A stretch of DNA of 20,000 nt from an uncultured virus (IMG/VR IMGVR_UViG_3300023202_000179) (Duplodnaviria; Heunggongvirae; Uroviricota; Caudoviricetes). This document shows, piece by piece, positions 5,883 to 20,000 of this stretch (its first letter is position 1; each line of letters opens with the position of its first letter). The translations under genes were made by a program, and so were the position numbers. The notes below the pieces were generated by a model. It ran no database searches. It was not told the origin of the DNA and saw nothing but the letters and a program-made list of their open reading frames with translations. The stretch lies in IMG/VR virus record IMGVR_UViG_3300023202_000179; one strand, written 5' to 3'.

Positions 5883-6263
5883 CTATGTTTCTTTGGGAGG
5901 GTCAACTTGTTGCCCGAAATCTGTGGGGAGAGGTTCGCCGGGAAGCCAGAACGCTAGAGCTGCGACCTCCGCGGGAGGCGGCTCCCCGGAAGCATCCTCC
6001 CACGTCTCGCCGCAATTCAACTCCAGCTCGACAACATCGGCGAATCCCGAGGCGTGCAGGGCTTTCACCATGGCCCAGCACCGGGCGCAGTGCTTTATAC
6101 TCGCCCATCTCCCGTCGAGTACGGAGCTCCAAATATGGTAGTGGTGCCCTTTGGGGATCGTCTCTAGGCACGCACCGCATTTGTGCTCCTTAGCAGCGGC
6201 CCTCCACATACCCATTCCGAACCCTTGCCCATCCTCAGCGTCGATATCGCACATGTCGTTCAC
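5883..6263 (-). CDS. Phage zinc-finger hypothetical protein
   Basis: AAKEHKCGACLETIPKGHHY...KHCARC pattern (two CxxC), common in phage proteins. Confidence 0.7.
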   Translation of the reverse strand: MNDMCDIDAEDGQGFGMGMWRAAAKEHKCGACLETIPKGHHYHIWSSVLDGRWASIKHCARCWAMVKALHASGFADVVELELNCGETWEDASGEPPPAEVAALAFWLPGEPLPTDFGQQVDPPKET

Positions 6264-6445
6264 ATTCCTTGTTCTTCTTTGTTTGCATCTTCTACCAACT
6301 CCATGTAGTAGAGCGCGAGCTCAGCCATGTCTTTCGCGATCTTGCGCCAAACGACTGCGGGATAGAACTTCTTGGTCGTGACGACGCCGAGCGCACGTTC
6401 ACGTTCAAGAGCGAGATTGCCGAGGTTTTTTGGGTATTTGTTCAT
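6260..6445 (-). CDS. Hypothetical protein
   Basis: 61 aa; AAGGAG ribosome-binding site upstream. Confidence 0.65.
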   Translation of the reverse strand: MNKYPKNLGNLALERERALGVVTTKKFYPAVVWRKIAKDMAELALYYMELVEDANKEEQGM

Positions 6446-6467
6446 CGTGTCTGCTCCTTACACCAGT

Positions 6468-7214
6468 CTAGTCTCTCGGGGTGAGACGATCGGCGACGCA
6501 CCACAGAGCCATCTCCGGGGACATCTCCGCACACAAGTCGAGTCTCTCCGGGGTGAGATGATCAGCGGCGCGCCGCAGAGCCACCCACGGGAGCCTCTCC
6601 GCACACCGATCGAGTCTCTCCGGGGTGAGATGATCGGAGGCGTACTGCAGAGCCGCCCACGGGAACCTCTCCGCACACCAATCGAGTCTCTCCGGGGTGA
6701 GACGATCGGGGGCGTACTGCAGAGCCACCCACGGGAACCTCTCCGCACACCGATCGAGTCTCTCCGGGGTGAGACGATCGGCAGCGAACCTCAGCGCCGC
6801 CCACGGGATCCTCTCCGCACACCGATCGAGTCTCTCCGGGGTGAGACGATCAGCGGCGCGCCGCAGCGCCGCCCCCGGCTGCTTCTGCGCACACCAGTCA
6901 AGTCTCTCCGGGGTGAGACGATCGGCGACGCACTGCAGAGCGACCCCCGGCTCCTTCTGCGCACACCAGTCAAGTCTCTCCGGGGTGAGACGATCGACTA
7001 CGTGCTTCAGCGCCGCCCACGGGAGCCTCTCCGCACACCAATCGAGTCTCTCCGGGGTGAGGTGGTCGGTGGCGTGCTCCAGAGGCCAGTCGGCGTACTC
7101 CTCGATCACCTCTTCCCACGTCCGGGGAGCTTCTTCCAGCCATTCGAGAGCGTCTTCGCAGGCTCCCCTCTTCCGAGCGGTTTCGATCTCTTCGGGTGTG
7201 ATGTAGTCGTTCAT
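6468..7214 (-). CDS. Tandem 24-aa repeat protein, paralog A (248 aa, 8 full repeats)
   Basis: ATG at 7214 follows AAAGGAGG. A 51-aa N-terminal domain (MNDYITPEEIETARKRGACEDALEWL...) is followed by LTPERLD(W/R)CAxxxPxxALxxxxD(R/H) units. Confidence 0.85.
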   Translation of the reverse strand: MNDYITPEEIETARKRGACEDALEWLEEAPRTWEEVIEEYADWPLEHATDHLTPERLDWCAERLPWAALKHVVDRLTPERLDWCAQKEPGVALQCVADRLTPERLDWCAQKQPGAALRRAADRLTPERLDRCAERIPWAALRFAADRLTPERLDRCAERFPWVALQYAPDRLTPERLDWCAERFPWAALQYASDHLTPERLDRCAERLPWVALRRAADHLTPERLDLCAEMSPEMALWCVADRLTPRD

Positions 7215-7460
7215 CTGTCCTCCTTTATACGAGCTCACGTCGATCTGGTTGCTGTCTTCCATGCCCCAATAAACGCATCTTCGGTGCGTGTATTCAACCA
7301 AAAAGCCACCAGCTGGCAAGAAAACACGTAACTAGTTGAAATCATTGGATTTTTACCTAAATCGACCTACATCTCAGTGCTGGACGTCTACATAAGGCTC
7401 ATTTAGTAGACTTTCCCTCTTGACCTCGACCGAGGGCTGTGCCAGGGTGCGGAGGTCCCA
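7215..7460. promoter_or_regulatory. Divergent control region with candidate promoters and an IHF-like site
   Basis: AT-richer non-coding gap at the strand switch. Rightward TTGACC(7420-7425)-17 nt-CAGGGT. Leftward TTGCCA(7314-7319)-16 nt-TTGAAT. TAACTAGTTGAAA (7329-7341) is one mismatch from the IHF consensus YAANNNNTTGATW. GTCTAC-N14-GTAGAC at 7386-7411. Confidence 0.5.
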
Positions 7461-8018
7461 ATGAGCAGTTACATCACACCCGAAGAGATCGAAACCGCCC
7501 GGAAGAGGGGAGCCTGCGAAGATGCTCTCGAATGGCTGGAAGAGGGTCCCCGAACGTGGGAGGAGGTGATCAATAAGTACGCCTACTGGCTTCTGGCGCA
7601 CGTCGCATATCACCTCACCCCGGAGAGACTCGATCGGTGTGCGGAGAGGTTCCCGTGGGTGGCTCTGGGGCACGCTGCCGATCGTCTCACCCCGGAGAGA
7701 TTCGACTGGTGTGCGGAGAGGTCCCCGTGGGCGGCTCTGCGGTACGCCGCTGATCGTCTCACCCCGGAGAGACTTGACTGGTGTGCGCAGAAGGAGCCGG
7801 GGGCCGCTCTGCGGCGCGCCGCTGATCGTCTCACCCCGGAGAGACTTGACTGGTGTGCGCAGAAGGAGCCGGGGGCCGCTCTGCGGCGCGCCGCTGATCA
7901 TCTCACCCCGGAGAGACTTGACTGGTGTGCGGAGAGGATCCCGTGGGTGGCTCTGCAGTACGCCTCCGATCGTCTCACCCCGGAGAGATTCCAATGGTGC
8001 CAGGAACAAACACGATGA
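7461..8018 (+). CDS. Tandem 24-aa repeat protein, paralog B (185 aa, 5 full repeats plus cap)
   Basis: GGAGG ribosome-binding site; same N-terminal domain and repeats as A; ends LTPERFQWCQEQTR. Confidence 0.88.
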   Translation: MSSYITPEEIETARKRGACEDALEWLEEGPRTWEEVINKYAYWLLAHVAYHLTPERLDRCAERFPWVALGHAADRLTPERFDWCAERSPWAALRYAADRLTPERLDWCAQKEPGAALRRAADRLTPERLDWCAQKEPGAALRRAADHLTPERLDWCAERIPWVALQYASDRLTPERFQWCQEQTR

Positions 8019-8305
8019 ACGACTACATCACACCCGAAAAGATCGAGACCGCCCGGAAGAGGGGAGCCTGCGAAGATGCTCTCGCATGGCTGGAAGAAGC
8101 TCCCCGGACGTGGGAAGAGGTGATCGAGGGGTACGCCGACTGGCTTCTGGTGCACGCCACCGACCACCTCACCCCGGAGAGACTCGATCGGTGTGCGGAG
8201 AGGTTCCCGTGGGTGGCTCTGCAGTGCGCCTCCGATCATCTCACCCCGGAGAGACTCGATCGGTGTGCGGAGAGACTAGGTTTGGTGTGGAAGCAGACAC
8301 GATGA
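8015..8305 (+). CDS. Tandem 24-aa repeat protein, paralog C (96 aa, about 1.5 repeats)
   Basis: ATG at 8015 in an ATGA overlap with B. The first 153 nt differ from paralog A at only 8 positions by hand alignment. Confidence 0.82.
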   Translation: MNDYITPEKIETARKRGACEDALAWLEEAPRTWEEVIEGYADWLLVHATDHLTPERLDRCAERFPWVALQCASDHLTPERLDRCAERLGLVWKQTR

Positions 8306-8336
8306 ACCAACAGAAGAAGACAAGGACAAAACCAAC

Positions 8337-8588
8337 ATGCAACAACAACGACATTTGAGGATCGCCGAACCGTACCCCCGGCTCGATACCCTGAAAACCC
8401 TCCTCATCTGCATCGCAGACAAGGACTATGAGATCCCGATCCGAGGGTGTACAGGTCTTTTGCGCAAGGCCGAAAAGATGGGGCTCGTCCGTCGGGAGAA
8501 ACCGGTGTGCGCGAACGGGAACGAGCGCAGGAACCCGGTGACTCTCACGAATCTGGGAGCATCCGTTATCTACAAGAAGGGGGAATGA
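8337..8588 (+). CDS. Hypothetical protein, possibly winged-helix-like
   Basis: 83 aa; LRKAEKMGLVRR...VTLTNLG resembles a wHTH wing. ATGA overlap with the next gene. Confidence 0.5.
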   Translation: MQQQRHLRIAEPYPRLDTLKTLLICIADKDYEIPIRGCTGLLRKAEKMGLVRREKPVCANGNERRNPVTLTNLGASVIYKKGE

Positions 8589-10468: not shown

Positions 10469-10648
10469 ATGAGCAAACACCGAGAAATTGCCAAGAAATG
10501 GCTCCCACACCTGACGGCTGCAGACTTAATTGGGGAGCTCCAGAAGAGGGGGCATCCTGGGTATGACGTACAAGTCCGTGAAGAAGAATCCTTACGCGAT
10601 CCCATGCTCATCGGCCCGGACGTAGCACGGGACGAGACCAAGAAGTGA
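10469..10648 (+). CDS. 59-aa hypothetical protein coupled to the recombinase
   Basis: Hand translation MSKHREIAKKWLPHLTAADLIGELQKRG...; GTGA overlap with the recombinase start. Confidence 0.55.
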   Translation: MSKHREIAKKWLPHLTAADLIGELQKRGHPGYDVQVREEESLRDPMLIGPDVARDETKK

Positions 10649-11625
10649 CGACTCGTCTGAAACGACGAGAATCGGTCTCCGCTCTCGTAGAATCGTCAAC
10701 GCAGGACGACATTGATACGTTCATGCTCGTCCTGCGGAACTGGCTGGCACCGCTGACCGATTCATCGCAGGCGGCGTACCATGCCTGCTTGATTGACTTC
10801 GCCCGTTTTTGGGGCTCAGACGAAACCCGTTCGGTGTTTGAGTGGGTCTGGCTTCCTGCGAAGGAGTCATACAAAGAACTGCTCGCGTACAAGGTGAACC
10901 TCAGCGAGCGGAAACTCTCTGCCCCCACGATCAACCAACGATTATCCTGCCTCATGTCGGTTTCAAAGGCGGCTTCCAAGGTCTTTGGGCATAACCCGGT
11001 CTCGATCGAGCTCCTCCACGTCCCTGAAAAGGAGGCGAGAGTCGTCAGCAACGCTCAGTGGCACGCTGTTGTCCGTCACCTACGACAGGAGCGTGACAGG
11101 GCGACCCCGGGGACCAGAGGCGAGATGCTGGCAGTGCGGATGCTGGCGATCGTCAGACTTTTGCGGGACGTTGGACTTCGGCGAAAAGAGGTGGTAGGTC
11201 TGGACTACTCGGATGTGGTCTATGCCGACAAGGTGCTGGTGATTCAGCCTAAAGGCCCCAAAGAAGTACGCAAGCGGCACCCTTGCGACGGTCGAGCTTG
11301 GGAGTGTCTTGTCGAGTGGATGGAGCTCCGAGGAGATGAGCCTGGACCGCTATTTGGGTTCACACACCTGTCCAACTTGAACAAGCTCGTCGGTCGGCTG
11401 GGGTCCGCCCTAGGCTTCGAACTCACCCCCCACATGTTTCGGCACAACGCTACATCTGCCGTCGAGATGATCGCTGATCGGGATATGGCGCAGACCTTCG
11501 CTAGACACGCCAGCCCCGTCACCACTGCAAAATACCTGCACAACAAACACGAAGAAGCGTTGCGAGAGATTCAGAGGAGCTTAGGAGAAGATGAAGAAGA
11601 AGACATCGGATCTGAAGAAGGGTGA
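10645..11625 (+). CDS. Tyrosine recombinase/integrase (XerC-like)
   Basis: Catalytic motifs GLRRKEV (R), K, TPHMFRH (HxxR) and ARHASPVTTAKY (H...Y); N-terminal LSAPTINQRLS core-binding domain. Confidence 0.92.
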   Translation: MTTRLKRRESVSALVESSTQDDIDTFMLVLRNWLAPLTDSSQAAYHACLIDFARFWGSDETRSVFEWVWLPAKESYKELLAYKVNLSERKLSAPTINQRLSCLMSVSKAASKVFGHNPVSIELLHVPEKEARVVSNAQWHAVVRHLRQERDRATPGTRGEMLAVRMLAIVRLLRDVGLRRKEVVGLDYSDVVYADKVLVIQPKGPKEVRKRHPCDGRAWECLVEWMELRGDEPGPLFGFTHLSNLNKLVGRLGSALGFELTPHMFRHNATSAVEMIADRDMAQTFARHASPVTTAKYLHNKHEEALREIQRSLGEDEEEDIGSEEG

Positions 11626-13949: not shown

Positions 13950-14086
13950 AAGTCGACCCGGAGACTCAAAACCCGGGAGTTTTCCTCGGCGCTGCGCAAC
14001 GCTGCGCATCGCTCCGCTGCGCACCGCACCGCTACGCTACGCAACGAAAGTCGACCCGGAGACTCAAAACCCGGGAGTTTTCCTCG
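13950..14086 (+). repeat. Pair of identical 39-bp direct repeats separated by 59 bp
   Basis: AAGTCGACCCGGAGACTCAAAACCCGGGAGTTTTCCTCG at 13950-13988 and 14048-14086. Can fold as GGAGACTC/GAGTTTTC (two G-U pairs) or CCCGG/CCGGG. Confidence 0.95.
13990..14044 (+). repeat. CGC-NN pentamer array 1 (11 perfect units); candidate guide RNA
   Basis: cgcTG cgcAA cgcTG cgcAT cgcTC cgcTG cgcAC cgcAC cgcTA cgcTA cgcAA. Confidence 0.92.
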
Positions 14087-14129: not shown

Positions 14130-14711
14130 ATGCGACAGTACAGAGCCAAACTCAAAGCCTTCTCCGACTTCTACTCACAGTCCCGGCAGTTCCCGGATGA
14201 GGATGAACTTGCGAAGGGGAATGACGAGAGCCACGACAAATACGCATGGCGCACTTGGCCCGAGAAGATGCACGTGACCGAGGACGGTTACGTCAAGATC
14301 CCTGGGATGGCGATCAAGCAAGCTATCGACGCCGCCGCGAAGGATTCAGGGGCGAAGATCAAGGGTCGCGGGAACAAGACCTGGGGCTCTCTTTTCCCGG
14401 GAGGTGTCATGGTCATGCGGGATGCGAAGACCAACATCAAAACCGATGAAGTCGAGCCAGGGGTGTACTGGTGCGACACAACTGGGCAGAAGGGTGACAA
14501 GTCTTCCCGACGGGTGCGCCGGGTGTTCCCGATGATCCCGAAGTGGGAAGCTGAGGTCGAATTCGTCGTAACGAACGACGACATTCCCGGGGAGAAGTTG
14601 CACGAGTATCTCAGCCGAGCCGGGATCCAAGTCGGTATCGGTAGATTCCGTCCGTCCAAGGGTGGGAACAACGGGATGTTTTTGGTCGAGAAGTTCGAAG
14701 AGATTCAATAG
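14130..14711 (+). CDS. Solitary RAMP/Cas7-like RNA-binding protein
   Basis: N-terminal beta strand (YRAKLKAFS); GYVKIPGMAIKQAIDAAAK resembles the RAMP IPGSSxKGxxR motif; RVRRVFPMIPKWEAEVEF; C-terminal Gly-rich loop AGIQVGIGRFRPSKGGNNGMFLV. No other cas genes in the window. Confidence 0.75.
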   Translation: MRQYRAKLKAFSDFYSQSRQFPDEDELAKGNDESHDKYAWRTWPEKMHVTEDGYVKIPGMAIKQAIDAAAKDSGAKIKGRGNKTWGSLFPGGVMVMRDAKTNIKTDEVEPGVYWCDTTGQKGDKSSRRVRRVFPMIPKWEAEVEFVVTNDDIPGEKLHEYLSRAGIQVGIGRFRPSKGGNNGMFLVEKFEEIQ

Positions 14712-14714
14712 AGA

Positions 14715-14799
14715 CACATCGCTGCGCTCCGCGGCGCGCCGCATCGCTACGCTACACGTCGCTACTCATCGCCCGGCGCCTCAGCGGGAAATCTGAGGC
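14715..14799 (+). ncRNA. CGC-NN pentamer array 3 (12 units) plus 3' hairpin; candidate guide RNA
   Basis: cacAT cgcTG cgcTC cgcGG cgcGC cgcAT cgcTA cgcTA cacGT cgcTA ctcAT cgcCC (14715-14774), then a perfect 7-bp stem GCCTCAG-cgggaaat-CTGAGGC (14778-14799). The repeat is certain; expression as an RNA is inferred. Confidence 0.65.
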
Positions 14800-16904: not shown

Positions 16905-18017
16905 ATGGCTTCTTATCTCCCCTCAGATTCTTACCCCCGGGAGCAAGGCGTATTTTGGGGTCGTTGCGGATCTACTTGGAACCGAGAAATCGAGGTTACC
17001 GGTTGGATTCAATCCCTTCGGTTTGGCGATCAATTTGCGGTCGACCTTCAACCCTTGGCCACTGACGAGGAAGTTGCCGCTGTTGGGCGAGACTCCGCCG
17101 AAGAGCGGCAACTTTTCCAGTACTTGGACGGTCGTCGACAGTACTTCGCAGGTCTCGCTGCGACGGTTTCCTACCTGAAACCCGCTCAACGCGCATCGAT
17201 CCAAGAGCTGCTCGACCGGGCAGACGAACTCGTAGAGCTCATCGGCGATATTTACCGGAAATGGGAGCGATTCCCTTGTTTCATCGATCTTGGAGAGCAA
17301 TCTCCAGTGTGCGCGTGGCCGTTGTCCTGGGCGGATAATGTGGGAGCTTGGAGGAAGAGATGCGGCGAGCTCCCCTTCGAACCAGGAAAGTCCTACAGCG
17401 CTTTCGATGCGACCTCGGGCACGCAGAGAACCTTCACTTGCCCGATCTCCCCTGGCTCGCCCTTGGCACGGCTCGACGGCACAACCCGCGCACAAGACCG
17501 TGAACAGATCCGGGACATCACGAAAGGCGTTCTGCATCACCTTCGGTGCGCACATTACACCCTCAATCGTTTGAAGCTCTACAGCCAAGCCTGGCGTGAA
17601 TACCGCGACAGTCAGATGAAAGGCACCTGGGTCGGCTTGGAGCCTCCGGAGGAGGAACCTGAAACGCTCGGGTTTGGGGGATTGAAAGCCGATATCCCTC
17701 CGGGCGTGGACCCGAACGATTTCCTCCCCGATCCTCCAACGCCTGGAGAGATTTTCCCTGTCCCTGCCGACCTGGACTTCGACTTCGACCCTCCGGGCGA
17801 GAAAGACGAGGAGGACCCGTCCGAGCTCCCAGAACCAGACCCCGATTCCTTGCCGCCATGGGATCAAGGGCCGGACGCTGAAGGAGCCCCCGACACCGGT
17901 GCTCCCGGTGCTGCTAGCGCTTCCGACGATACACACTCCCGAACCCTGAAATACGGCGCCATCGGGCTGGGAGCCGTTGCAGTTGGCGCCATCATCTACA
18001 AAGGAATCAAGAAGTGA
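16905..18017 (+). CDS. Hypothetical protein with Pro/acidic linker and C-terminal membrane anchor
   Basis: 370 aa; Cys/Trp-containing N-terminal domain, P/D/E-rich stalk and terminal YGAIGLGAVAVGAIIYKGIKK. Confidence 0.78.
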   Translation: MASYLPSDSYPREQGVFWGRCGSTWNREIEVTGWIQSLRFGDQFAVDLQPLATDEEVAAVGRDSAEERQLFQYLDGRRQYFAGLAATVSYLKPAQRASIQELLDRADELVELIGDIYRKWERFPCFIDLGEQSPVCAWPLSWADNVGAWRKRCGELPFEPGKSYSAFDATSGTQRTFTCPISPGSPLARLDGTTRAQDREQIRDITKGVLHHLRCAHYTLNRLKLYSQAWREYRDSQMKGTWVGLEPPEEEPETLGFGGLKADIPPGVDPNDFLPDPPTPGEIFPVPADLDFDFDPPGEKDEEDPSELPEPDPDSLPPWDQGPDAEGAPDTGAPGAASASDDTHSRTLKYGAIGLGAVAVGAIIYKGIKK

Positions 18018-18343
18018 GCTTCAAAAAACTCTTCAACGATCTCGCCTCTGACTTCGACCAAGCCAAGGAAGAAGCCCTCAGAGAAGCCGTCGACACGTGT
18101 GACCTCAACCCCTTGAGCGGTCCTATCTCCCCTCTTGGACTCTTTTCGAGGACGGTCCAGAAGACCCGGCAAAACGGACGAGGATATGTGCCGGACTTGA
18201 TTCACGCAGGCATCCGCGCCACCCAGGAGATCTTGAAACCGGAACCCGAAGAAGTCGAGGTCGAGGTCGTCGAAGAAGACGAAGATGGGAACACGGAGAA
18301 GTTCGAAGCCAAGATCACTCAGATCTACGAAAGCGAAACCTGA
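18014..18343 (+). CDS. Hypothetical acidic protein
   Basis: 109 aa; AAGGA upstream; GTGA overlap. Confidence 0.7.
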   Translation: MSFKKLFNDLASDFDQAKEEALREAVDTCDLNPLSGPISPLGLFSRTVQKTRQNGRGYVPDLIHAGIRATQEILKPEPEEVEVEVVEEDEDGNTEKFEAKITQIYESET

Positions 18344-18357
18344 AAGACGATCTGAAA

Positions 18358-18395
18358 CAAAGGGCGCTTGCTTCGGGGGAGGCAAGCGCCCTTTG
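18358..18395. terminator. Strong hairpin between convergent gene blocks; probable bidirectional terminator
   Basis: CAAAGGGCGCTTGC-ttcgggggag-GCAAGCGCCCTTTG is a perfect 14-bp stem with T-rich tails on both strands. Confidence 0.85.
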
Positions 18396-18396
18396 C

Positions 18397-18508
18397 TTAC
18401 GTGTACGTAAGAAGAACGCACCCTCGGATGTTGCTCGGAGGGGTGGTGATGGCGTCGAGCTCAAAGTTTAGGTAGTCGTCCGGAGTCACATGCAACACGG
18501 GTGCCTTT
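18397..18508 (-). pseudogene. Orphan C-terminal fragment resembling the ends of the neighbouring beta-rich proteins
   Basis: APVLHVTPDDYLNFELDAITTPPSNIRGCVLLTYT* aligns in pattern with FAVVQGTKLAFTVEATQAPGLSQMVLTLRYA* and HTFVDGDLVALTHTADDGLSDFMDWTVVIND. Confidence 0.4.
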
Positions 18509-18940
18509 TCACGCGTACCGGAGCGTGAGCACCATCTGAGACAGCCCCGGGGCTTGTGTGGCCTCAACCGTGAAAGCCAGCTTCGTTCCCTGGACCACAG
18601 CAAAACCGGGGCAGACCGCTTCGCTGAACGTGTCCGCCCCGCCGGGGGTCGTGGTAGCCGTCGCCGCCGGTGTGGTGAGGCTGTTGGACGTGCTCGGCGG
18701 GTCTCGGGAGTAGACTCGGAACGTCACCGTCCCGGGGTCGCTCGCGGACTGGAAACCGAGCGACACAATCATTGTCCCCGCAGACGGGCACAGGTATCCC
18801 GTCCGGTTGTTCATCCGCAGGTTGGGGGACAGTAGGCGGCTGATCAGAGTCGGCTGATATTCCGTATTGGCGTTGAACGTTTGTGAGCCGCCCGGAATGA
18901 TCGATATTCGATGTCCGTTGGGGAGGTATACGCTCGGCAT
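18509..18940 (-). CDS. Beta-rich putative virion structural or receptor-binding protein
   Basis: 143 aa; Thr/Ser/Gly-rich; TGATG coupling with the upstream gene. Confidence 0.65.
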   Translation of the reverse strand: MPSVYLPNGHRISIIPGGSQTFNANTEYQPTLISRLLSPNLRMNNRTGYLCPSAGTMIVSLGFQSASDPGTVTFRVYSRDPPSTSNSLTTPAATATTTPGGADTFSEAVCPGFAVVQGTKLAFTVEATQAPGLSQMVLTLRYA

Positions 18941-19359
18941 CAGGGAATCACCTCGTCAGAGACTTGAACGTACGAGCTGCGAAACCGTCCGCCGTTTTGG
19001 AACTGCGGATCGTTGAAAAGCTCAAACTGATCTTGCTCCGTCAAACCCAGCCCCGTCGCTTGCAATCGAACTTCAACGCTACCGGCCGCATACGCGCCGA
19101 GAGTCAACGTCGTGCTATCCACGGCAGTGCCCGAACCGTTGATGTGCAACCGGAACTGGCAGTTCCCTAGGCTCGCCCCGGTCCCGTCCCACGCCGCGAA
19201 GCGCCATCGAATGTATAGATCGCCCGTGGCGAAAAACGTCGGATAGAACTGTTGAACGACTCGAAACGTGGGGTTCGTTTGCTCGGTGTTCTCGATCCAA
19301 GGGATATAAACCCCCGTCGTGCGCCCTTGATATGAGCAATAGATATACTCAACGGCCAT
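18940..19359 (-). CDS. Beta-rich putative virion structural protein
   Basis: 139 aa; FRLHINGSGT pattern parallels FRVYSRD and LRLYRD in the neighbours. Confidence 0.65.
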   Translation of the reverse strand: MAVEYIYCSYQGRTTGVYIPWIENTEQTNPTFRVVQQFYPTFFATGDLYIRWRFAAWDGTGASLGNCQFRLHINGSGTAVDSTTLTLGAYAAGSVEVRLQATGLGLTEQDQFELFNDPQFQNGGRFRSSYVQVSDEVIP

Positions 19360-19852
19360 CGTTGATTACCACAGTCCAGTCCATGAAGTCACTAAGACCA
19401 TCGTCCGCAGTGTGGGTCAACGCAACAAGATCGCCATCCACGAACGTATGAGTCGCGAACTCGAACACCATCGGTTCGCCGTTGTCGACCGTCACTTGCA
19501 GTTCTTCAAGGAGAGTCGAGGACGCGGTATCGTTCTGAACGTCGCGGTACAGCCGCAACGTATGGGTGACAGCCGCTGCCCCGGTTTCGACCATCATCCC
19601 GATGACCGTGAATGTGAGCTCGCCGCCGTCCAACATGACCATGACTTGCCCGTCCGTCCCGCCGAGCGTTGTAGCCAGCGTTGTCTGGAAGTTCGGCGAA
19701 AAGAACGACCCGACGACGGGGTTCTGGACCATCCCCGGCGAGTACTGGAAACCGTCGAGCTCCAGCCCTGCCGTCGACGGAGGTAGCCCGTCGATGCGGA
19801 CCAGGCAACAATTGCCGTCGATCACCGGTTCGCCGTCGAGTCTTCGCGTCAC
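19349..19852 (-). CDS. Beta-rich putative virion structural protein
   Basis: Probable start GTG at 19852 (MTRRLDGEPVIDG...) in a GTGA overlap with the upstream stop; in frame with the 19349-19969 ORF. Confidence 0.65.
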   Translation of the reverse strand: MTRRLDGEPVIDGNCCLVRIDGLPPSTAGLELDGFQYSPGMVQNPVVGSFFSPNFQTTLATTLGGTDGQVMVMLDGGELTFTVIGMMVETGAAAVTHTLRLYRDVQNDTASSTLLEELQVTVDNGEPMVFEFATHTFVDGDLVALTHTADDGLSDFMDWTVVINDGR

Positions 19853-20000
19853 AGGGTCGCCGTCCTCACGAGGCCAAACGCAGTCCAGGAGATCGTGGTC
19901 GCGGCCTCCCCCGTCACCGTCTGGACGACATCGCTGCCCGACACAGAAGGGGCGTTCGTGTTCGACCACCCCGTGCCGGCGCCGAACTGCACGCCCCCGG
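19849..20000 (-). CDS. C-terminus of a putative structural protein (starts outside the window)
   Basis: Hand translation ...GGVQFGAGTGWSNTNAPSVSGSDVVQTVTGEAATTISWTAFGLVRTATL*, with the stop at 19849-19851. Confidence 0.65.
   Translation of the reverse strand, partial: GGVQFGAGTGWSNTNAPSVSGSDVVQTVTGEAATTISWTAFGLVRTATL

What the first reader, a model, noticed from the sequence alone, without database searches (positions are those of the whole stretch)
6442..8307. Three paralogous 24-aa repeat proteins in inverted arrangement, with combinatorial repeat units
Seen: a shared 51-aa N-terminal domain is followed by 8, 5 and about 1.5 repeats of 72 bp. Units are mosaics of interchangeable sub-blocks: DW/DR, AER[L/F/I/S]PW versus AQK[E/Q]PG, VAL/AAL, a hypervariable pair (KH, QC, RR, RF, QY, WC, GH, RY) and DR/DH. 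A and B are the first genes of the two divergent arms. Inference: an alpha-solenoid binder family diversified by recombination or gene conversion, possibly for host takeover or anti-defence. The hypervariable di-residue recalls TALE/PPR-type specificity codes. Recombination between A and B/C would invert the control region and swap repeat tails.
Basis: partly seen in the sequence, partly recalled or inferred. Interest (0 to 1): 0.7.

Follow-up and report, generated by a model that had tools for sequence, protein, structure and literature searches.

The report
Phage hypervariable helical-repeat protein family
Three related genes of an uncultured phage belong to a widespread, unnamed family of small helical-repeat proteins whose repeats are kept nearly identical except at four fast-changing surface positions, which suggests a natural library of binding proteins whose targets are still unknown.

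Summary
Genes A (6468-7214, -), B (7461-8018, +) and C (8015-8305, +) share a 51-aa N-terminal module followed by 8, 5 and 1.5 mosaic 72-bp units, and A and B head the two divergent arms. One correction: A has lost its last capping helix to a 1-nt deletion. The family is widespread in phages (563 clusters), has no Pfam or PHROG name, and folds as a 24-residue two-helix solenoid related to DUF4116 and LRV (1LRV). The new result comes from relatives. In nine other lineages with recently homogenised arrays, amino-acid changes concentrate at unit positions 13, 15, 16 and 19 (omega 3.5-5.4, each significant after correction), one inferred helix face. In this window alone the signal is not significant. 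Best reading: a paralogue library of protein binders, diversified by recombination plus selection, like fungal NLR high-internal-conservation repeats. A TALE-like code is weakly hinted at and unlikely. Inversion is unsupported: no relative has head-to-head copies. No target is known. The scan noted similar behaviour before in other repeat types, not in this family.

The parts
6468..7214 (-). Gene A, 248 aa: 51-aa N-terminal module plus 8 full 24-aa units; ends early, without the terminal capping helix
   Evidence: single-sequence model pLDDT 88.6, repeats 94-98
6486..7061 (-). Repeat array of A, 8 x 72 nt
6442..6485 (-). Terminal-helix sequence of A, out of frame after a 1-nt deletion near 6477; still carries the ribosome-binding site and start overlap of the next gene (6260-6445)
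   Evidence: crossed without a gap by X1 record 1
7215..7460 (.). 246-nt divergent intergenic region between the two gene arms; A+T-rich centre 7291-7380 (GC 0.39)
   Evidence: spanned by X1 record 6, 7114-7530; no sigma-70 consensus site
7461..8018 (+). Gene B, 185 aa: N-terminal module, 5 full units (7614-7973), terminal helix; the only intact architecture of the three
   Evidence: model pLDDT 97.4, pTM 0.88
8015..8305 (+). Gene C, 96 aa: A-like N-terminal module (8 differences from A, 22 from B in 153 nt), 1 full unit (8168-8239), half a unit, A-like tail; start overlaps the stop of B
8302..8358 (+). 18-codon ORF whose start overlaps the stop of C; probably not a protein gene, out of frame with the gene at 8337
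   Evidence: status not tested

Best explanation
A, B and C are members of a phage family of small, stand-alone alpha-solenoid binding proteins. Each 24-aa unit folds as helix A (positions 3-12), a one-residue turn (13), helix B (14-20) and a short helical turn (predicted). A conserved framework builds the solenoid. Positions 13, 15, 16 and 19 of successive units form a repeated variable stripe (position on one helix face inferred from helical geometry). Short-tract recombination within and between paralogues keeps the units alike, reshuffles sub-blocks and changes unit number (shown from sequence), while selection keeps those four codons diverse (shown in relatives, only a trend in this window). 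The likely job is to bind variable host proteins early in infection, such as defence components or host machinery, with several paralogues covering several targets or alleles (inferred; no target shown). The head-to-head layout here is a lineage-specific result of duplication to the other arm, not a conserved switch.
For: Fold; DUF4116 proteins head the viral fold list; 1LRV TM 0.54/0.57 over 208 columns, Z 7.9, rmsd 4.5 over 212 residues, and best sequence hit of an 11-unit relative, E 8.5e-4; profile-profile match to DUF4116 proteins, probability 86%. Breadth: 563 clusters at E <= 0.001. Selection: 9 other lineages, 56 units, 31.7 synonymous changes on 172.6 sites; omega 4.7, 3.6, 3.5, 5.4 at positions 13, 15, 16, 19, Bonferroni p 2e-5, 0.007, 0.012, 1e-6; the other 20 positions 0-1.3; the quartet against local synonymous sites omega 5.0, p 1e-8. 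Framework pN below pS in 41 of 44 arrays. Recombination; exact 52-58-nt tracts shared between genes in shifted register. Paralogue clusters: 25 of 63 loci hold 2 or more family ORFs. Neighbours are mostly replication, recombination and methylase genes. Variable sites use broad alphabets rich in W, G, A, V, Y, E, R.
Against: No binding partner, phenotype or expression is shown. In this window alone no position is significant (best: position 13, omega 4.2, corrected p 0.15; quartet against local synonymous sites p 0.065), and positions 20 and 22 vary here although they do not in relatives. Arrays were chosen for low synonymous divergence (13 of 44), which inflates omega; in diverged arrays the ratio is near 1. 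The one-face claim rests on secondary structure and a helical wheel, not on coordinates. A lacks its C-cap and C has only 1.5 units, so some copies may be decaying. PUF RNA-binding domains tie with LRV in the fold list, and some relatives are fused to RepC or HTH domains, which fits nucleic-acid binding as well.
Confidence: 0.55

Rival explanations
1. The units read nucleic acid one base per repeat, as a shortened TALE-like or PUF-like code; A and B, flanking the divergent region, could be regulators.
For: The family profile's two best PDB sequence hits are TAL effector chains (E 2.4e-6 and 3.5e-6), with helix A in register and position 13 lying over the TALE variable di-residue. PUF domains score Z 8.0. 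Four RepC fusions and one HTH fusion among 104 relatives scanned. The 15/16/19 spacing equals the PUF recognition spacing (recalled, not from a call).
Against: The TALE score is summed over repeats; single stretches score 3.5-7.6 bits and none is significant, and the alignment needs a gap of about 9-10 residues per repeat. An 11-unit relative hits 1LRV and no TALE. Of 77 proteins with the N-terminal module, 71 have 1-5 HMM-counted units, one has 8: too few for a base-per-repeat address. Mean unit charge -0.7 over 264 units. Ten or more residue types at each variable site.
Confidence: 0.15
2. The inverted genes form a recombination switch that flips the 246-nt control region and swaps repeat tails, giving phase variation.
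For: 539-nt arms at 87% with exact tracts up to 54 nt between A and B and 58 nt between A and C; C on the right arm has an A-type start and tail, so exchange between arms has occurred; an integrase-family gene lies at 10645-11625.
Against: 0 of 63 related loci and 0 of 12 whole records show opposite-strand copies; no short dedicated inversion site stands out in the intergenic region.
Confidence: 0.1
3. The arrays are unstable coding minisatellites under relaxed constraint at surface sites; the variation has no binding role.
For: Window-wide dN/dS 0.89; window sites not significant; frameshift in A and truncated C; wide spread of unit numbers.
Against: Other exposed positions (8, 11, 12, 23) give omega 0.5-1.3 under the same selection of arrays while four positions give 3.5-5.4; quartet omega is above 1 in 9 of 9 lineages; framework under purifying selection.
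Confidence: 0.1
4. Variation is written by a diversity-generating retroelement.
For: Changes fall almost only on first and second codon positions of a few codons.
Against: No reverse transcriptase (PF00078) in 5 of 5 virus records, 27-88% complete, nor among 82 neighbouring ORFs or the 29 window proteins scanned; no non-coding template copy in the window; 17 of 21 fourfold-degenerate A columns are invariant.
Confidence: 0.02
5. The three-gene arrangement is an assembly artefact.
For: X1 contigs break inside the arrays and no listed piece spans the stretch; one contig differs at 6768 and 6839. Short-read assemblies of such arrays are unreliable (PMC11761791, abstract and passages).
Against: Three distinct N-termini and 14 distinct units; unique contigs reach the ends of A and C and link the intergenic region to the starts of A and B; paralogue clusters recur in other phages. 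Unit order may still hold errors.
Confidence: 0.03

Closest known systems
DUF4116 (PF13475) repeat proteins
   Same: Two-helix repeat with a shared A-L-x-Y-A block; our profile retrieves DUF4116 proteins; hhalign probability 86%; DUF4116 proteins head the viral fold search; modelled as an alpha-solenoid in PMC8078820 (passages).
   Different: 24-aa rather than 25-aa period (one gap per unit), conserved Cys and Pro, a distinct N-terminal module, short arrays; A, B and C do not match PF13475. DUF4116 has no known function in the papers found.
Leucine-rich repeat variant, PDB 1LRV (PF01816)
   Same: Closest solved structure by fold and by sequence for a long relative; a relative carries the same N-terminal module in front of LRV repeats (P0148). 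The 24-residue period of 1LRV is recalled.
   Different: About 20% identity, rmsd 4-6 A, Foldseek E only 0.05; PF01816 not matched by A, B or C.
High-internal-conservation repeats of fungal NLRs (Podospora HET-D/HET-E WD40)
   Same: Near-identical repeats kept by concerted evolution, four hypervariable codons under diversifying selection on a binding surface, repeat exchange between paralogues (PMC11761791 and PMC13449251, abstracts and passages). This is what the family works like in evolutionary terms.
   Different: Not homologous: no NACHT or NB-ARC or effector domain, helical instead of beta-propeller units, carried by phages rather than by the host.
TAL effectors and STAR proteins
   Same: Weak sequence likeness of helix A and the following turn, variable residue in the same register. 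STARs bind 9-bp sites with few repeats (PMC11417379, abstract and passages).
   Different: Unit about 10 residues shorter, four variable sites rather than a di-residue, no significant single-repeat match, mostly 1-5 units.
PUF domains; engineered alphaRep and DARPin binders; PRDM9 zinc-finger array
   Same: PUF and alphaRep appear among generic fold matches. Variable residues on one helix of each unit, and homogenised units with selected contact sites, are recalled features.
   Different: Z below the level at which helical repeats can be told apart; no sequence relation shown.

Membership tests
DUF4116 (PF13475) | Match to PF13475 above the curated cut-off | tested here: not met
   No match for A, B, C at E <= 0.05; 3 of 82 aligned members match at best E 0.01; two longer relatives just pass the cut-off.
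DUF4116 (PF13475) | Homologous two-helix solenoid repeat | tested here: met
   hhalign 86%, E 5e-6 against a three-sequence alignment; top viral fold matches, none with E <= 0.001. Distant relation, moderate strength.
LRV (PF01816, 1LRV) | Match to PF01816 | tested here: not met
   Not listed for A, B, C at E <= 0.05.
LRV (PF01816, 1LRV) | Same superhelical fold | tested here: inconclusive
   TM 0.54/0.57; Z 7.9, rmsd 4.5, 212 aligned, tied with PUF and a Phytophthora effector.
TALE / TALE-like | 33-35-aa repeat (length recalled) matching the TAL effector family | tested here: not met
   Period is 24 aa; no TAL effector family match for A, B, C or among 104 relatives; PDB alignment needs a 9-10-residue gap per repeat.
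TALE / TALE-like | DNA-wrapping superhelix | tested here: inconclusive
   Fold lists show only the best 50 rows.
TALE / TALE-like | Sequence-specific DNA binding, one base per repeat | not testable with these tools
   Needs SELEX or equivalent.
High-internal-conservation (HIC) repeat arrays | High identity between units with recombination | tested here: met
   1-18 differences in 72 nt between window units; Rm 7.
High-internal-conservation (HIC) repeat arrays | A few codons under diversifying selection | tested here: met
   Met for the family (9 other lineages); not significant in this window alone.
HIC NLR receptors | NACHT or NB-ARC domain with effector domain | tested here: not met
   Proteins are 96-248 aa, module plus repeats only.
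Diversity-generating retroelement target | Reverse transcriptase and template repeat; adenine-specific changes | tested here: not met
   the records searched are incomplete and the rest of this window's genome is not held.
Invertible (phase-variable) locus | Both orientations present in the population | tested here: inconclusive
   Only short-read contigs exist; they break in the repeats and list no joint.

The most novel reading that the evidence does not exclude
The 24-aa unit is a minimal TALE-related reader: position 13 and the 15/16/19 face of each unit recognise successive bases of DNA or RNA, and phages reprogramme specificity by shuffling sub-blocks between paralogues. That would be a new, compact, phage-borne programmable nucleic-acid-binding code.
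Probability: 0.12. Interest if true: 0.9.

Novelty: new variant of a known kind. Interest (0 to 1): 0.56.

Why it matters
If the reading holds, many unrelated phages carry small paralogue libraries of natural repeat binders with a four-residue variable surface per unit, evolving as fungal immune-receptor repeats do but on the virus side. Finding their targets would point to host proteins under phage attack, possibly unknown defence systems. The 24-aa unit, predicted to fold without an alignment, is also a candidate binder scaffold. The four positions make the function directly testable by swaps.

Tried and rejected
No whole genome is held, so the rest of this virus was not seen. Pfam and PHROG give no meaningful name: DUF6374 and TIP49_C hits have no stretch passing on its own. 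ESM Atlas gave only unnamed, mostly viral clusters below 0.9. A search with the N-terminal 50 residues found no candidates. No close relative of this virus was found by gene B, the integrase or the 370-aa gene, so the same locus could not be compared in a sister phage; host unknown. Among cultured phages only Dolichospermum phage Dfl-JY45 has a diverged relative. No RNA holder listed. X2 and X3 hold next to none of the stretch. No sigma-70 promoter or terminator consensus and no unusual fold in the intergenic DNA (z -0.81). No TALE among the listed rows of five PDB or viral fold searches. The 22-aa repeat family that shares the N-terminal module shows only mild site excesses, omega up to about 2-4 on saturated or tiny samples, untested for significance. 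Paper searches that found nothing on this family: (DUF4116, 4 papers, 3 listed); subscription journals and supplements were not searched, and the tables of PMC11417379 that list screened repeat proteins were not read. No complex prediction was sent because no partner is claimed.

Full report
Observation. The window is phage-like: integrase, MazG-like protein, exonuclease, GroES, dATP/dGTP diphosphohydrolase and an M15 peptidase among 29 proteins scanned. Genes run on the - strand left of 7214 and on the + strand from 7461 to about 18343, with an AT-skew switch at that point. The first gene of the left arm (A, 6468-7214, 248 aa) and the first two of the right arm (B, 7461-8018, 185 aa; C, 8015-8305, 96 aa) are paralogues. 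Each has a 153-nt N-terminal part, then 72-nt units: 8 in A, 5 in B, 1 plus 12 codons in C. All 14 full units are distinct and differ by 1-18 nt. One correction: A ends at 6468, not 6442, because one G is missing near 6477 and the terminal helix that B keeps is out of frame.

Reality of the assembly. One public run holds the stretch (91% of words) and may be the source sample. Its contigs cover 30 of 30 bins; 26 of 29 laid records are 99% or more alike; 8 of the 29 were shown. One reaches from the left flank through the A deletion without a gap, one spans the intergenic region into the starts of A and B, one covers the end of C, and one 174-nt piece inside A differs at 6768 and 6839. No joint is listed, but the contigs break in the arrays, so neither unit order nor orientation is proven.

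Recombination. Among 14 informative biallelic sites, 64 of 91 pairs show all four gametes, Rm is 7, and incompatible pairs lie further apart than compatible ones (p 0.009). Exact tracts of 52-58 nt are shared between genes in shifted register. The N-terminal part of C differs from A at 8 of 153 nt but from its neighbour B at 22, and its tail is A-like. So sequence has moved between the two arms at least once.

Family. A word-based search found 21 relatives; a profile found 563 clusters at E <= 0.001 among 1.84 billion representatives, of which the best 150 were listed. Of 160 proteins held at that point, 77 carry the N-terminal module, and 71 of these have 1-5 HMM-counted units. No Pfam or PHROG family names A, B or C. 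Among 104 relatives scanned, three are true DUF4116 proteins, two just pass that cut-off, four are RepC fusions, one an HTH fusion and one pairs the N-terminal module with LRV repeats. The same module also heads a different 22-aa repeat in other phages (L012-L014). An exact two-unit pattern found only 2 stretches in 185,579 species genomes, both on short contigs with virus-like genes, so the family looks viral. Neighbours are mostly single-strand annealing proteins, exonucleases, replication initiators, primases and methylases (82 ORFs from selected longer loci).

Paralogues and orientation. After dropping 13 duplicate loci and L001, 25 of 63 loci hold two or more family ORFs (some may be frameshifted halves, and a few loci are not independent), 11 of 22 among those of 4 kb or more; none has copies on opposite strands; 39 of 63 have a copy within 150 nt of a locus end. 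In 12 of 12 whole virus records all matches lie on one strand. Paralogue clusters are a family trait; the head-to-head layout is peculiar to this virus as far as sampled.

Structure. With an 82-sequence alignment, B folds at pLDDT 97.4, pTM 0.88; A folds from its sequence alone at 88.6. Each unit is helix A (3-12), a one-residue turn (13), helix B (14-20) and a short helical turn. DUF4116 proteins head the viral fold list without reaching E 0.001. In the PDB, 1LRV gives TM 0.54/0.57 and Z 7.9, rmsd 4.5 over 212 residues, tied with a PUF domain (8.0) and a Phytophthora effector (8.6): a common crescent arrangement that shows no function. By sequence, an 11-unit relative hits 1LRV at E 8.5e-4, and the family profile matches DUF4116 proteins at 86%.

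Selection, the main new result. Of 44 arrays with three or more units, framework pN is below pS in 41 and pN at positions 13/15/16/19 is above pS in 31. Thirteen arrays have pS below 0.25. I dropped three as the same lineage as another (L009, L025, L048) and set the window apart, leaving nine lineages with 56 units. With a minimal-change count per codon, they show 31.7 synonymous changes on 172.6 sites; omega is 4.7, 3.6, 3.5 and 5.4 at positions 13, 15, 16 and 19 (p after correction for 24 positions 2e-5, 0.007, 0.012, 1e-6) and 0-1.3 at the other 20. The local synonymous rate is not raised, and quartet omega exceeds 1 in 9 of 9 lineages. In L009 six units differ at no synonymous site. Limits: choosing low-pS arrays inflates omega, although equally exposed positions 8, 11, 12 and 23 stay near 1; the count is not a likelihood model; arrays come from short reads. 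In the window alone omega is 4.2, 1.4, 1.8 and 3.3 at those sites, 3.0 at 20 and 2.8 at 22, none significant. On a helical wheel the conserved residues 14, 17, 18, 21 lie at 300-40 degrees and 15, 16, 19 at 100-200 degrees; with the turn residue 13 they should form one exposed stripe. No coordinates were available, so this is inferred, and concave or convex is open.

How it most likely works. Shown: solenoid framework under purifying selection, unit shuffling, paralogue expansion, four diversifying codons in relatives. Inferred: these codons form a binding surface, and the ligand is a variable host protein met early in infection (defence component or host machinery). The variable sites use broad, partly aromatic and aliphatic alphabets, the units average -0.7 charge, and arrays are short, all of which fit protein binding better than a base code. 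Against this, no partner is known, the profile's best PDB sequence hits are two TAL effector chains (E about 3e-6 summed; no single repeat significant; a 9-10-residue gap per repeat), PUF domains tie in the fold list, and RepC and HTH fusions exist. I put protein binder at 0.55, nucleic-acid reader 0.15, functional inversion switch 0.10, relaxed minisatellite 0.10, retroelement 0.02 (no RT in 5 of 5 incomplete records; invariant degenerate adenines in 17 of 21 columns), artefact 0.03.

Comparison and novelty. In evolutionary behaviour the family works like the high-internal-conservation WD40 repeats of Podospora NLRs: near-identical units, four hypervariable codons on a binding surface, exchange between paralogues (PMC11761791, PMC13449251; abstracts and passages read). 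It is not a member: no NLR domains. It is a distant DUF4116/LRV relative that fails both Pfam tests. PMC8078820 (passages) models DUF4116 as an alpha-solenoid. PMC11417379 (abstract, passages, sections 52 and 53) describes STAR, MOON and pTERF; its main text does not hold the whole words DUF4116 or phage; its supplements were not read. Eight literature searches found no description of this family, within open-licence papers and preprints only. PRDM9, DARPin, alphaRep and the PUF recognition spacing are recalled analogies. Earlier scan notes describe similar behaviour in a TPR-like gene and a jumbo-phage propeller family (unchecked, seen after my reading was formed); none concerns this family.

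Verdict. Real; a new variant of a known kind. An unnamed, widespread phage solenoid family with a statistically defined four-site variable surface. Interest 0.56: clear experiments follow, but function and host are unshown, and the code and inversion ideas lack support.

Noticed in passing
L012, L013, L014, L089-L098: The same N-terminal module (conserved Gly-Ala-Cys) heads a different 22-aa repeat, again in 2-4 paralogues per phage, and heads LRV/HEAT repeats three times in P0148. It may be a portable cap or a docking module.
   Followed up: partly
P0044, P0046, P0115, P0128: IncQ-type RepC replication proteins with C-terminal 24-aa repeats of this family; no plasmid record covers 80% of P0044.
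   Followed up: partly
window 6442-6460, 8003-8020, 8290-8307: All three genes end in a near-identical tail whose stop overlaps the next start, and the next genes all begin Met-Asn as A and C do; the unit of duplication includes the translational coupling junction.
   Followed up: partly
window 6768 and 6839: A run X1 contig (depth 8.1) has other letters at two otherwise invariant framework positions of A; population variant or smoothing in the window's assembly.
   Followed up: no
window 13950-14086 and 14713-14772: An exact 39-nt direct repeat 98 nt apart enclosing a 5-nt-period run, with a similar run about 700 nt downstream; they flank the gene at 14130-14711, as if it were an inserted cassette.
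   Followed up: no
window 7291-7380: A+T-rich centre of the divergent region with two 8-nt palindromes (7309, 7330); could be operator, origin or attachment sequence.
   Followed up: no
window 16905-19969 and 1064-1726: Genes without PHROG head or tail matches, one with a C-terminal hydrophobic stretch ending in lysines; L078 has similar genes. A tailless, membrane-containing virus is possible (recalled resemblance, untested).
   Followed up: no
L009:5710-6804: One unit holds a triplicated four-residue insert around positions 12-15, a sign of slippage inside the variable patch.
   Followed up: no
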